DNA from: a virus
Direction: 5' to 3' (one strand)
DNA: 64,000 bases
IMG/VR virus record: IMGVR_UViG_3300021964_000022
Location: 46,013-110,012 of that record
A program made the position numbers and the translations under genes. The stretch's first letter is position 1, and the number at the start of each line of letters is the position of its first letter. This document shows, one piece after another, positions 53,244 through 54,987 of this stretch. Below the pieces are notes generated by a model. The model saw nothing but the letters and a program-made list of their open reading frames with translations, did not search any database and was not told the DNA's origin.

Positions 53244-53600
53244 TTATATTGCTGTTAGTACCAATAAAGATTCACTTGAATCGTCTTGTGCTTCCCATGT
53301 ATAAGCATTGCCATTCCAGTCAATTGCTTTTCTATTAAACAATTTACTTAAAATAGTTGCTGTACCACCTGGTGCAATACCAACAAGCGATGCTTCGCCT
53401 GCCGCATTAGGTGCAATTTCGTTAACAAGTCTACAAACATATGTAGTTGACCCGTCAGTTGTAACAGTAAATTTATTTGATCCTTTTTGATTTACAATGT
53501 ATCCTTCAACACTAGCTGAACCATTGTGATATCTTACCGGAATCGTTGCCGCCGCGGCGCCTGTTGCACCGAAGTTTCTTTTATTAATTGGACGTCCCAT
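53244..53600 (-). CDS. Conserved-looking late (probably virion) protein
   Basis: MGRPINKRNFG N-terminus, GYIVNQKGSNKF; strong RBS AAAGGAG. Confidence 0.6.
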   Translation of the reverse strand: MGRPINKRNFGATGAAAATIPVRYHNGSASVEGYIVNQKGSNKFTVTTDGSTTYVCRLVNEIAPNAAGEASLVGIAPGGTATILSKLFNRKAIDWNGNAYTWEAQDDSSESLLVLTAI

Positions 53601-53616
53601 TTTTTTCTCCTTTGTT

Positions 53617-53680
53617 ACGTTCTAGGTAATACGCGGTGGATTTCCGCATAAAGTATGTACCTACATACTACTAGACACAT
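53617..53680 (-). ncRNA. Candidate three-way-junction cis-regulatory RNA in 5' UTR
   Basis: P1 AUGU-G-UCUAG/CUAGA-ACGU, P2 AGUAUGU/ACAUACU, P3 UAUGCGG/CCGCGUA, between TAAATA (53682-53687) and the SD. Confidence 0.55.
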
Positions 53681-53719
53681 GTATTTATCATTTAACAGCA
53701 TTAAGGAAAAATAGTCAAG

Positions 53720-53744
53720 AAAAAAGACTCCGAAGAGTCTTTTT
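53720..53744 (-). terminator. Intrinsic terminator (cUUCGg loop)
   Basis: AAAAAGACTC-TTCG-GAGTCTTTTTT. Confidence 0.85.
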
Positions 53745-53749
53745 AAATT

Positions 53750-53965
53750 ATAAGCAAAATAGGTAGGACTTGGTTACACCTACAAGCACGTACCCGAATA
53801 CCATTCTAATACGTACAACCTAACCCCGCTAGTGACTGCGATGTGATACTGCGTATTTCTACTACAGCACCTGGGTACCACCCCTGGCTAGTCAAGTTCG
53901 ACCCTTCTGGTAAAGGCCTCTTCCTTGCACTATAAACAAAAATTAATTACTTTTTTGTTGCTTAT
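53750..53965 (-). ncRNA. Candidate stand-alone non-coding RNA (~215 nt)
   Basis: Flanked by a sigma70 promoter and a terminator, no credible ORF, GC-rich core, 5' AUAAGCAA pairs with 3' UUGCUUAU, several internal hairpins. Confidence 0.6.
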
Positions 53966-53971
53966 GTACTT

Positions 53972-54000
53972 AATATAACAGACTTTATATATAAAGTCAA
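53972..54000 (-). promoter_or_regulatory. Sigma70-type (early) promoter with overlapping 18-bp palindrome
   Basis: TTGACT-17 nt-TATATT with TGn extension and upstream A-tracts; perfect palindrome GACTTTATATATAAAGTC at 53981-53998. Confidence 0.8.
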
Positions 54001-54060
54001 CCTCTTTTTTACCAAAATATTAAATTTTTTGTAATCTAGGTAGATACTAATATAGTTTGA

Positions 54061-54210
54061 CTATTTCTTGTTTACAAGTGTATTGTAATGATGTAAGCGT
54101 TGTTGCAGTAGTTCACGTGCCATAGGGTCACGTTCACGCTTTAACTGATCCAATATCTGCTTGCGTATGTCACTAGGACGTTGATGTGTGTTTTTCTTTT
54201 TGTTTTTCAT
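54061..54210 (-). CDS. Small basic helical protein, 49 aa (not in ORF track)
   Basis: MKNKKKNTHQRPSDIRKQILDQLKRERDPMARELLQQRLHHYNTLVNKK; fills the intergenic gap, no clear SD. Confidence 0.45.
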   Translation of the reverse strand: MKNKKKNTHQRPSDIRKQILDQLKRERDPMARELLQQRLHHYNTLVNKK

Positions 54211-54217
54211 TTATGTG

Positions 54218-54243
54218 TAGGGGGCCTATTATGACCCCCTAGT
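54218..54243 (-). terminator. GC-rich stem-loop right after the riboswitch-controlled peptide
   Basis: TAGGGGG-TCATAATAGG-CCCCCTA; no U-tract on the minus strand. Confidence 0.45.
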
Positions 54244-54246
54244 TTG

Positions 54247-54441
54247 CTACCAATTGTTTGTAGAACGTGCTGTGCGATGTGCTAGTACCATACCTTGGTT
54301 AGTACCCTGCTTGACAGCGTATCCACTTGTACCATTTCCGTTCACATTAACTTCACTACGAGATTTCATAAGGATTTTTTCCTTGCGTTCTCTTATTTTT
54401 TGCTCGCGGTATGATTTAAGTAGGTGATCGTATCTGTTCAT
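54247..54441 (-). CDS. Glutamine-riboswitch-associated basic peptide, possible IF7/GifA-like GS inactivating factor
   Basis: 64 aa, SD AAGGAGAG; IRERKEKILMKSRSEV resembles the IF7 core as recalled (IKNRQQSMLSRAAAEI). Confidence 0.55.
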   Translation of the reverse strand: MNRYDHLLKSYREQKIRERKEKILMKSRSEVNVNGNGTSGYAVKQGTNQGMVLAHRTARSTNNW

Positions 54442-54464
54442 TACACTCTCCTTGTTACAGTTAA

Positions 54465-54515
54465 GTGCGTTCCTTCAGCATATTTGCTTACTTCCGGGCT
54501 ATGTCGCCTGAACGT
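54465..54515 (-). promoter_or_regulatory. Glutamine riboswitch (glnA RNA motif, glutamine-I)
   Basis: ACGUUCA-GGC-GACAUA-GCC-CGGAAGUA-AGCA-AAUA-UGCU-GAAGGAACGC: P1 CGUUC/GAACG, P2, E-loop, P3 and trailing C all as in the glnA consensus. Confidence 0.9.
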
Positions 54516-54522
54516 TGTATTA

Positions 54523-54894
54523 TTATTTAGTATCTAATACTTGAATAAATTCAGTTTCTCTGTCCAAATATTTAAAGTCAATCTTTACAGGATCAAACTT
54601 ATCTAATGCATCAAATACTATTCGTGTGTCTAAATCACCGCAAGTGTAGACATCTAATTGGATTAGTTTTGGAGATTGTTCGTCCCATATGTGTATTGCT
54701 ACGTGTGATGTTTCAATAATAGTAACACAAGTAAATCCTTTGTTACCTTCCATATCACAATACTTAACATAAGGACCCATCATAATCTTCATACCAATGT
54801 CTCTAATTAAATTAGAAGTCCAATCAGTAATAGTTTGTTCGTATATTGGAGGATTACTTACTTCTGCTCGTACTATTAAATGTTTATGTTTCAT
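54523..54894 (-). CDS. speD: Pyruvoyl-dependent S-adenosylmethionine decarboxylase-family proenzyme
   Basis: HKHLI, GFT.V.IIETSH.AIH.W, LDVYTCG. Confidence 0.85.
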   Translation of the reverse strand: MKHKHLIVRAEVSNPPIYEQTITDWTSNLIRDIGMKIMMGPYVKYCDMEGNKGFTCVTIIETSHVAIHIWDEQSPKLIQLDVYTCGDLDTRIVFDALDKFDPVKIDFKYLDRETEFIQVLDTK

Positions 54895-54958: not shown

Positions 54959-54987
54959 AAAAAAATAGGCGCCGTAGCGCCTATTTT
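54959..54987 (-). terminator. Intrinsic terminator after major capsid gene
   Basis: AAAATAGGCGC-TACG-GCGCCTATTTTTTT. Confidence 0.88.

What the first reader, a model, noticed from the sequence alone, without database searches (positions are those of the whole stretch)
54247..54529. Phage-encoded glutamine riboswitch in front of an IF7-like peptide: a possible viral nitrogen-sensing switch on host glutamine synthetase
Seen: a near-consensus glnA/glutamine-I aptamer (CGUUCA...CGGAAGUA...GAAGGAACGC, with P1, P2 and P3 all pairing). It lies just downstream of a TAAATA promoter-like site and about 12 nt upstream of an AAGGAGAG SD for a 64-aa basic peptide. Established: in cyanobacteria this riboswitch class switches on a glutamine synthetase inactivating factor (gifB/IF17), and IF7 is a basic ~65-aa protein. 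Inference: IRERKEKILMKSRSEV aligns with the IF7 core as I recall it (IKNRQQSMLSRAAAEI), keeping I, R, L, R/K and E. The phage may therefore make a GS inhibitor or decoy only when glutamine is high, tuning host N assimilation during infection. The adjacent speD adds a second nitrogen/polyamine gene.
Basis: partly seen in the sequence, partly recalled or inferred. Interest (0 to 1): 0.92.

Follow-up and report, generated by a model that had tools for sequence, protein, structure and literature searches.

The report
Phage glutamine riboswitch gating SpeD-linked peptide
A giant marine phage carries a genuine glutamine-sensing RNA switch that most likely turns on a small basic protein when nitrogen is plentiful, but that protein is not an IF7-like inhibitor of glutamine synthetase: it is the detached tail of the neighbouring polyamine enzyme SpeD, to which it is fused in many other phages.

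Summary
Window 54516-54464 (minus strand) is a full-length glutamine riboswitch (Rfam RF01739, 50.9 bits against a cut-off of 35). It sits behind a conserved late-type CTAAATA box and in front of a 64-aa basic ORF under purifying selection (dN/dS about 0.24).

The conserved C just 3' of P1, plus four more bases, pairs with the 3' half of the SD and the spacer. This helix covaries across 102 related leaders. It competes with the glutamine-induced G-C pair known from the crystal structure, so a translational ON switch is the best reading.

The IF7 reading is not supported. The peptide has no DUF4278, NCBIfam or PDB match. Instead it is clearly homologous (hhalign 99.4 %, E 5e-22) to a C-terminal module fused to SpeD in uncultured phages (64 of the 80 best loci), and speD is the gene directly upstream here. 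The window therefore looks like a split SpeD fusion with a promoter and riboswitch placed between the halves.

The same leader drives other short basic peptides in more than 100 viral contigs, in SAR11 phage Mosig, in OM43 phage Melnitz (published as tmRNA control) and in SAR116 chromosomes. First readers of this scan noted like cassettes on other genomes. What the peptide does is unknown.

The parts
54524..54530 (-). Late-promoter-like box CTAAATA (TAAATA at 54529-54524), overlapping the speD stop codon
   Evidence: Read from the sequence. An (A/C)TAAATA box lies 12-15 nt upstream of CGUUCA in 62 of 73 distinct related upstream contexts, whatever gene lies upstream. That it acts as a promoter is inferred.
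54464..54516 (-). Glutamine riboswitch aptamer (glnA RNA, type I): P1 at 54514-54510 with 54472-54468; G22/G23 at 54495/54494
   Evidence: Rfam RF01739, 50.9 bits against 35, E 3e-8, full model. P2 and P3 covary in 102 related leaders.
54463..54467 (-). 5' strand of the expression-platform helix (CACUU). Its first base, C at 54467, is the conserved C that pairs with G23 in the glutamine-bound structure.
   Evidence: In the CM-fitted alignment A2, helix 4 is 96.7 % paired, with both-side changes in 5 of 5 pairs. Permutation test. Linchpin G23-C pair described in PMC11477058; platform model in PMC6212724.
54444..54448 (-). 3' strand of the expression-platform helix (GAGUG): the last three bases of the SD plus two spacer bases
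54446..54453 (-). Shine-Dalgarno sequence AAGGAGAG
   Evidence: Read from the sequence. GGAG-type SDs are conserved in the related leaders.
54247..54441 (-). 64-aa basic protein (class A): predicted helix at residues 3-27, then a conserved NGNGTSGY..G.N.G..L.H segment. Homologous to the C-terminal module of SpeD fusion proteins.
   Evidence: ORF; phrog_32989 at E 2e-11; dN/dS 0.24; AF2 helix 3-27; hhalign 99.4 % to the fusions; BLASTP against P0030 residues 133-193, 49 % identity, E 2e-19.
54220..54239 (-). GC-rich hairpin (GGGGGUC-AUAAUA-GGCCCCC) after the stop codon, without a U-run
   Evidence: Read from the sequence. In relatives L004, L027 and L083 a hairpin with a U-run follows the ORF. 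Function inferred.
54523..54894 (-). speD (S-adenosylmethionine decarboxylase proenzyme, 123 aa), the upstream partner
   Evidence: Pfam PF02675 at E 1.5e-13. BLASTP against P0030 residues 7-124, 49 % identity, E 2e-43.

Best explanation
This is a self-contained late transcription unit.

1. Transcription. A CTAAATA late-type box starts the transcript a few bases before a type-I glutamine riboswitch.

2. OFF state (no glutamine). The conserved C that follows P1 (54467) and the next four bases pair with GAGUG (54448-54444). That covers the 3' half of the Shine-Dalgarno sequence and the spacer. In this class the 5' strand of P1 can also pair with UGAAC at the start codon.

3. ON state (glutamine bound). 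Glutamine closes P1 and draws that C into the G23-C pair. The small helix opens and the ribosome can start, so this is an ON switch.

4. Product. The product is a 64-aa basic protein: one long helix and a conserved Gly/Asn-rich tail. In many uncultured phages the same module is the C-terminal extension of SpeD. Here SpeD stops where the fusion's linker begins, and the promoter and riboswitch sit in the gap. The phage therefore makes SpeD unconditionally and its accessory module only when host glutamine is high. This most likely ties the polyamine/polycation side of late infection to nitrogen supply.

Shown: the aptamer, the conserved promoter box, the covarying helix, purifying selection on the ORF, and homology to the SpeD fusions.

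Inferred: the ON direction, and that the module works with SpeD. Its molecular activity is unknown.
For: - Aptamer.
- Promoter box: conserved in 62 of 73 upstream contexts.
- Linker and RBS pairing: native -4.98 kcal/mol against -3.0 +/- 0.16 in 500 cross-locus permutations, none reaching the native value.
- Covariation: helix 4 is 96.7 % paired, with both-side changes in all 5 pairs, and the signal collapses when the partner is slid by +/-1.
- Folding: the MFE of the leader (-20.1 kcal/mol) buries the SD 3' half and the AUG, against -11.3 for the aptamer fold alone.
- Literature: glutamine inserts G23 to pair with the C at the base of P1 (PMC11477058). The gifB riboswitch is ON with glutamine, and the same C plus downstream bases are proposed to mask the RBS (PMC6212724).
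- Same linker type in front of SAR116 gltB, where induction by its substrate makes sense.
- Real gene: dN/dS 0.24 over 89 pairs; 21 homologs at 61-95 % identity.
- SpeD link: fusions P0030, P0048 and P0052 carry PF02675. 340 viral stretches encode a relative, and 64 of the best 80 are single ORFs. hhalign 99.4 %, E 5e-22. Window SpeD aligns to fusion residues 7-124 and the peptide to 133-193. No riboswitch was found in 20 fusion or split loci.
- RNA-library contigs from three studies cover the leader and the 5' end of the ORF.
Against: - No experiment shows ligand binding or the direction of the switch.
- The alignment used for the pair counts was fitted to the structure.
- The second OFF contact (GUUCA/UGAAC) is specific to some peptide classes.
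- In the window's own phage clade, the slot after speD more often holds a class-B peptide, which is not detectably related to class A (hhalign 1 %). Most class-A cassettes there follow the capsid gene with no speD. Adjacency to speD here could therefore be a matter of an insertion hot spot.
- The fusions lie in a different group of phages with about 32 % GC, and none is in an isolated phage.
- AF2 gives the module low confidence next to SpeD (pLDDT 41-59), so no interface is shown.
- RNA-library contigs may include DNA carry-over.
Confidence: 0.6

Rival explanations
1. One reading: the peptide is a functional analogue of cyanobacterial IF7/IF17. It is made at high glutamine, binds host glutamine synthetase and inhibits it or acts as a decoy.
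For: - The riboswitch class controls gifB/IF17 in cyanobacteria (PMC6212724).
- IF7 and IF17 are small basic proteins that bind GS electrostatically through conserved arginines, and they co-evolve with GS so sequences diverge (PMC6316151).
- The peptide is 64 aa with net charge +8.
- SAR116 chromosomes put a short basic peptide under the same riboswitch, alongside gltB and an Amt-like gene, and those genomes have one GS.
Against: - No DUF4278, NCBIfam or PDB similarity.
- Class A is homologous to a module of SpeD, not to any GS-linked protein.
- Relatives occur fused to SpeD or free, without any riboswitch.
- The OM43 host of Melnitz is reported to lack GS (PMC9004378).
- SAR116 already has GlnE and PII for GS control.
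Confidence: 0.12
2. The peptide is itself a polycation that binds nucleic acid, for example by neutralising the charge of packaged DNA in parallel with the polyamines made through SpeD. The riboswitch limits this nitrogen-expensive product to nitrogen-replete cells.
For: - Late-type promoter, and a position right after the capsid gene and speD.
- 96 % of the riboswitch-linked peptides are net positive, with a median charge of +7.
- Very different sequences occupy the same slot behind one leader, as expected if charge matters more than exact sequence.
- The module is fused to a polyamine enzyme.
- AF2 shows a single basic helix and a disordered tail.
Against: - No known DNA- or RNA-binding domain was detected.
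- Class A has an invariant non-basic motif (G37 T38 S39 G40 Y41, G46, H55), which points to a specific fold or partner.
- The SAR116 chromosomal peptides cannot be explained by capsid packaging.
- No proteomic evidence that the peptide is in virions.
Confidence: 0.2
3. The aptamer is an OFF switch or a non-functional relic, and the ORF is expressed constitutively from the late promoter or by read-through from speD.
For: - Direction was not measured.
- The glutamine-II class has its SD inside the ligand-bound pseudoknot.
- The thermodynamic gap between the OFF fold and the aptamer fold is large.
Against: - The aptamer core is invariant, with covariation in P2, P3 and the platform helix across 102 leaders.
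- Pairing of the conserved C with the RBS region excludes the ligand-bound G-C pair.
- The only tested member of the class is an ON switch (PMC6212724).
Confidence: 0.08

Closest known systems
Synechocystis sp. PCC 6803 gifB leader (type-1 glutamine riboswitch controlling IF17; Klahn et al. 2018, PMC6212724)
   Same: Same aptamer family (RF01739). Control is translational. The conserved C after P1 and the bases downstream of it are complementary to the RBS region. The product is a small basic protein.
   Different: The protein here has no DUF4278 and no detectable relation to IF17. The unit is driven by a phage late-type box, not an NtcA promoter. The gene is phage-borne and next to speD, and the host is probably not a cyanobacterium.
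Glutamine riboswitches of OM43 phage Melnitz and SAR11 phage Mosig (Buchholz et al. 2022, PMC9004378)
   Same: The same aptamer in myophages of marine heterotrophs. In Melnitz the linker is the same (GCACUUAAC..GGAGAGUGUnAUG) and in Mosig it is an anti-SD linker (CUCUUUUUAAAGGAG). Both are followed by a short basic ORF.
   Different: The paper reads the Melnitz element as control of the tmRNA and does not mention the downstream ORF. The peptides there are class C (32 aa) and class B (51 aa), not the SpeD-related class A. In Melnitz there is no TAAATA box; the aptamer follows ssrA directly.
Downstream-peptide / glutamine-II riboswitches with DUF4278 (YRG) micro-proteins of marine picocyanobacteria and cyanophages (Weinberg 2010, PMC2864571; PMC6212724)
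   Same: A glutamine aptamer in front of an ORF of 17-100 codons. Many phage copies exist.
   Different: Those peptides carry the YRG motif and match PF14105 at E 1e-4 to 1e-5. The window's peptide does not match.
SpeD-module fusion proteins of uncultured phages (P0030, P0048; loci L281-L346), found here
   Same: The window's speD and peptide together align to fusion residues 7-124 and 133-193, at 49 % identity each.
   Different: In the fusions both parts are one polypeptide with no riboswitch. Here they are two genes separated by a promoter and a glutamine riboswitch.
SAR116 chromosomal tandem glutamine riboswitch with a 38-aa basic peptide (L259-L265), found here
   Same: Same aptamer and the same type of platform helix (CACCU/GGGUG). 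The product is a short basic helical peptide in a stand-alone unit. Phage class G is 56-63 % identical to it.
   Different: It is cellular and usually has tandem aptamers. Homology to the window's class A is not supported (hhalign 1.6 %).

Membership tests
Glutamine riboswitch, type I (glnA RNA, Rfam RF01739) | Covariance-model score at or above the curated gathering score, over the full model | tested here: met
   50.9 bits against 35, model positions 1-53 of 53, E 3e-8
Glutamine riboswitch, type I (glnA RNA, Rfam RF01739) | Three stems (P1, P2, P3) with conserved junctions CGGAAGUA and GAAGGAACGC, and covariation in the stems | tested here: met
   Sequence. In 102 related leaders P2 and P3 show both-side changes in all pairs; P1 is invariant.
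Glutamine riboswitch, type I (glnA RNA, Rfam RF01739) | The bases of the ligand-induced long-range G-C pair (G23 and the C after P1) are present | tested here: met
   G at 54494 and C at 54467, read from the sequence. The role of these bases is taken from PMC11477058.
Glutamine riboswitch, type I (glnA RNA, Rfam RF01739) | Selective binding of L-glutamine and glutamine-dependent gene control | not testable with these tools
   Needs in-line probing or ITC, and a reporter assay.
GS inactivating factors IF7/IF17 (gifA/gifB) | DUF4278 (PF14105), the N-terminal domain of IF17 and IF17-like proteins | tested here: not met
   No Pfam hit at E<=1. YRG-type phage peptides do hit PF14105.
GS inactivating factors IF7/IF17 (gifA/gifB) | Sequence homology to IF7 or the C-terminal moiety of IF17, including the three conserved arginines | not tested
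NCBIfam and PDB searches gave no hit.
GS inactivating factors IF7/IF17 (gifA/gifB) | Small, strongly basic protein | tested here: met
   64 aa, net charge +8. This feature is not specific to the family.
GS inactivating factors IF7/IF17 (gifA/gifB) | Binds and inactivates glutamine synthetase | not testable with these tools
   Needs a GS activity or binding assay.
SpeD C-terminal module / phrog_32989 small proteins | Profile similarity over the helix plus the NGxGTxGY..G.N.G..L.H segment | tested here: met
   phrog_32989 at E 2e-11; hhalign against 33 fusions 99.4 %, E 5e-22, 50 columns; BLASTP E 2e-19.
SpeD C-terminal module / phrog_32989 small proteins | Genomic linkage to speD (fused or adjacent) | tested here: met
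   speD ends 82 nt upstream of the peptide's start codon. 64 of 80 related loci are fused and the rest are mostly adjacent.

The most novel reading that the evidence does not exclude
A riboswitch has been placed between the two halves of what is elsewhere a single fusion protein. The phage makes SpeD constitutively but adds its C-terminal accessory module in trans only when glutamine is high. That would be a nitrogen-gated subunit tuning polyamine synthesis, or polycation supply for DNA packaging, during late infection. More broadly, the late promoter plus glutamine riboswitch would be a portable 'nitrogen-replete only' expression module. Marine phages of SAR11, OM43 and SAR116-type hosts, and the SAR116 cells themselves, would use it for a set of uncharacterised basic micro-proteins.
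Probability: 0.3. Interest if true: 0.8.

Novelty: new variant of a known kind. Interest (0 to 1): 0.62.

Why it matters
- **Reach of the riboswitch class.** Glutamine riboswitches are described as a cyanobacterial device for controlling GS through IF17. This case shows the same aptamer and the same kind of expression platform in a giant phage, in many phages of marine heterotrophs, and in SAR116 chromosomes in front of gltB, an Amt-like gene and a micro-protein.
- **An unexpected target.** It links one regulated peptide family to SpeD by gene fusion, which gives a concrete, testable partner other than GS.
- **A correction to the literature.** In phage Melnitz the riboswitch precedes an unannotated small ORF, so control of the tmRNA is not the natural reading.
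- **Ecology.** If the ON-switch reading holds, these phages read host nitrogen status late in infection. That bears on how nutrient limitation shapes viral production in the sea.

Tried and rejected
- **GS binding.** Complex prediction with a SAR116 GS dimer and the SAR116 38-aa peptide from the same genome gave no verdict (score 0.00). It counts neither for nor against binding.
- **Getting IF7/IF17 sequences.** The search for homologous proteins (longer) with a YRG peptide found nothing. The direct IF7 comparison was therefore not run.
- **Language-model look-up.** ESM Atlas gave no usable hit.
- **Structure.** AF2 of the peptide gives only a helix at residues 3-27. AF2 of the fusion gives the module pLDDT 41-59. 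No fold search was worth running.
- **Homology between peptide classes.** Class A against the short classes and the SAR116 peptides gave hhalign 1.6 %. Class A against class B gave 1 %. Only position and composition are shared. A permissive BLAST single-linkage cluster was set aside as composition-driven.
- **P1 5' strand pairing with the start codon as a general OFF contact.** Rejected as general, because the second codon varies between classes.
- **Host assignment.**
  - No tRNAs in the window.
  - No close isolated relative.
  - A class-A cassette on a Flavobacteriales MAG contig (L245) may be a mis-binned phage contig.
- **Parts of the window without cover in the RNA-library contigs** (54109-54310). 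This is no evidence of absence.
- **Ren et al. 2015** could not be read. Its result is cited through PMC11477058 and PMC6212724.

Full report
**1. The observation**

The element lies on the minus strand. cmscan against Rfam places a full-length glutamine riboswitch aptamer (RF01739) at 54516..54464. It scores 50.9 bits against a gathering score of 35, with E 3e-8. It is the only copy in the 110-kb viral record that holds the window.

Numbering the RNA from 54516 as base 1:
- P1 is C3-G49 to C7-G45.
- P2 is GGC/GCC and P3 is AGCA/UGCU.
- The junctions CGGAAGUA (with G22 and G23 at 54495 and 54494) and GAAGGAACGC match the consensus.
- The SD AAGGAGAG lies at 54453-54446 and the AUG at 54441-54439.
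- The 64-aa ORF ends at 54247.
- The TAAATA box is at 54529-54524 and overlaps the stop codon of speD.

**2. What kind of phage this is**

- The neighbouring gene is a Gp23-type major capsid protein (Pfam E 3.5e-99). Its best matches, at 69-71 % identity, are jumbo myoviruses such as PA5oct, GAP32 and Phosso. The record is estimated to be about 30 % complete.
- speD is closest to pelagiphage speD.
- Near-identical DNA occurs in estuary and marine metagenomes from 11 studies.
- Nothing marks the phage as a cyanophage. The host remains unknown.

**3. The cassette is widespread and modular**

- All but one of these carry the full aptamer, a linker ending ..GGAG(A)AGUGUnAUG, and a short ORF of 32-81 codons.
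- A second scan for aptamers with other linkers returned 120 more. Many precede YRG-motif peptides that match DUF4278 at E 1e-4 to 1e-5.
- Of 140 distinct peptides, 96 % are net positive, with a median charge of +7.
- In a clade with scaffold and capsid genes 42-96 % identical to the window's, the order is conserved: scaffold, capsid, optional speD, riboswitch, peptide, then the same downstream structural genes. The peptide class differs even between phages with 96 % identical capsids.
- RNA-library contigs from three studies follow the leader to the start codon and then continue into other peptide classes.
- An (A/C)TAAATA box lies 12-15 nt upstream of CGUUCA in 62 of 73 distinct upstream contexts. 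It occurs after capsid-gene terminators, inside speD 3' ends, or after other genes.
- In several relatives a terminator follows the ORF.

The unit is therefore an autonomous, monocistronic, late-type cassette.

**4. How the switch most likely works**

- The nine bases after P1 are complementary to the RBS window far more than chance allows. The native mean is -4.98 kcal/mol, against -3.0 +/- 0.16 for 500 cross-locus permutations, none of which reaches the native value.
- In the window, C50-U54 (54467-54463, CACUU) pairs with G69-G73 (54448-54444, GAGUG).
- Other classes keep the helix through compensatory changes:
  - CGCCU/AGGUG
  - CAUCU/GGAUG
  - CUCUUUA/UAAGGAG
  - CGAAAUGU/ACAUUUCG
- A covariance model built with P1, P2, P3 and this helix aligned 102 leaders. 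On that alignment the helix is 96.7 % paired. All five pairs change on both sides, and the signal collapses when the partner is slid by one column. The alignment is fitted to the model, so this leans towards the structure.
- The first base of the helix is the conserved C. In the glutamine-bound structure that C pairs with G23 (PMC11477058). Klahn et al. proposed that this C and the bases after it mask the RBS of gifB, and they showed that the gifB riboswitch activates expression (PMC6212724).
- The two pairings exclude each other, so glutamine should free the SD.
- The MFE of the window's leader (-20.1 kcal/mol, z -2.0) forms the helix. It also pairs the 5' strand of P1 with UGAAC at the start codon. 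The aptamer fold alone is -11.3 kcal/mol. That second contact depends on the second codon and is not general.
- The direction of the switch is inferred, not measured.

**5. What the protein is**

- It is a real gene. There are 21 homologs at 61-95 % identity, and dN/dS is about 0.24 over 89 pairs.
- It has no Pfam, NCBIfam or PDB match. Its only family hit is phrog_32989, of unknown function (E 2e-11).
- AF2 predicts a basic helix at residues 3-27 (pLDDT 85-89) and nothing confident after it.
- A profile search over 1.84 billion representatives found 82 clusters.
- Three of these clusters (P0030, P0048, P0052) are SpeD domains (PF02675) with this module at the C-terminus.
- A scan of viral contigs found 340 stretches encoding relatives of the fusion. 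Of the best 80 loci, 64 have both parts in one ORF of 179-209 aa. In most of the remaining 16 the module is a separate gene after a gap of 29-199 nt.
- None of 20 such loci has any Rfam hit.
- hhalign between the class-A alignment and 33 fusions gives 99.4 %, E 5e-22, over 50 columns.
- The window's SpeD aligns to fusion residues 7-124, and its peptide to residues 133-193, at 49 % identity each.

The window is therefore the split form, with the promoter and riboswitch in place of the eight-residue linker.

Caveats:
- The fusions lie in a different phage group with about 32 % GC and without the window-type capsid.
- No isolated phage has the fusion.
- AF2 does not show the module packed on SpeD.
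- In the window's clade, class-B peptides follow speD more often than class A does.

**6. The IF7 idea**

- IF7 and IF17 are defined as small basic proteins that bind GS electrostatically through conserved arginines. DUF4278 forms the N-terminus of IF17 (PMC6316151, PMC6212724).
- The peptide shares only size and charge with them. DUF4278 is absent.
- I could not obtain an IF7 sequence, so the recalled alignment remains untested.
- Against a universal GS target: the relatives fused to SpeD or lacking a riboswitch, and the reported absence of GS in the OM43 host of Melnitz (PMC9004378, not checked here).
- In favour of some nitrogen-regulatory role: the cellular parallel described next.

**7. 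A cellular counterpart**

- Scanning species-representative genomes for the 17-mer gave a SAR116 single-cell genome. There the same aptamer and linker precede gltB.
- RF01739 occurs in 14 of 121 genomes of that order, mostly in tandem.
- The downstream genes are gltB, an Amt-like membrane protein, or a stand-alone 38-aa basic peptide on chromosomal contigs of up to 1.2 Mb.
- Phage class G is 56-63 % identical to that peptide.
- These genomes also have GS, GlnE and PII.
- Homology between the SAR116 peptide and the window's class A is not supported.

**8. Isolated phages**

- Melnitz (OM43 host) has the same aptamer and linker, followed by an unannotated 32-aa ORF. The paper reads the element as control of the tmRNA.
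- Mosig (SAR11 host) has an ATAAATA box, the aptamer, an anti-SD linker and a 51-aa class-B protein annotated as hypothetical.

**9. Verdict**

- The riboswitch is real and belongs to a known family.
- The regulated protein and the split-fusion layout are new to the literature I could search.
- First readers of this scan noted like cassettes on other genomes, without follow-up.
- The best-supported reading is a glutamine-ON, late-expressed accessory module of SpeD.
- A role as a GS inhibitor is possible but has no specific support.

Noticed in passing
window 53598-53668 (-): freshwater-2 RNA motif (RF02980), 61.2 bits against a cut-off of 49.9. It lies directly upstream of the 118-aa ORF 53600..53244, and its conserved AAGGAGAAAA..AUG end is the RBS of that ORF.
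   Followed up: no
L250/L252, L254-L265 (SAR116-order genomes G001, G008-G111): Glutamine riboswitches, mostly tandem, in 14 of 121 SAR116-order genomes. They lie upstream of gltB, an Amt-like membrane protein, or a stand-alone 38-aa basic peptide. This looks like a glutamine-riboswitch regulon in a marine heterotroph, although the literature describes the class as cyanobacterial or of unknown affiliation.
   Followed up: partly
L001:1484-1648 (Methylophilales phage Melnitz-1, MZ577095.1): The published 'tmRNA-controlling' glutamine riboswitch is followed, after the same linker and SD, by an unannotated 32-aa basic ORF (P0022). The record annotates a CDS on the opposite strand there.
   Followed up: yes
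L279:1329-1560 (-) (Pelagibacter phage Mosig, MT647606.1 about 92025-92260): An ATAAATA box, a glutamine aptamer with a variant P1 (CGUUU/AAACG), an anti-SD linker, and the 51-aa class-B peptide Mosig_00116.
   Followed up: yes
window 53705-54007: The neighbouring non-coding region, which is the subject of another finding in this scan. It has high depth in RNA-library contigs of four runs, and part of it (53903-53977) is 80 % identical to an unannotated stretch of pelagimyophage Mosig.
   Followed up: no
window 54061-54210 (-): A 49-aa basic ORF after the hairpin. It has no SD and no homolog in about 240 related loci, so it is doubtful as a gene.
   Followed up: partly
L131, L135, L138, L162, L174, L187, L192 and others: Tandem glutamine aptamers in viral contigs. 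Also hybrid peptides that combine a basic helix with a YRG motif, for example in L187 and L223.
   Followed up: no
L189, L234: Glutamine riboswitches in front of a 31-aa peptide with a hydrophobic, probably membrane-spanning C-terminus. Not all the regulated micro-proteins are soluble basic helices.
   Followed up: no
window 54962-54987: A perfect 11-bp palindromic hairpin with T-runs on both sides, between the capsid gene and speD. It is probably a bidirectional terminator.
   Followed up: no
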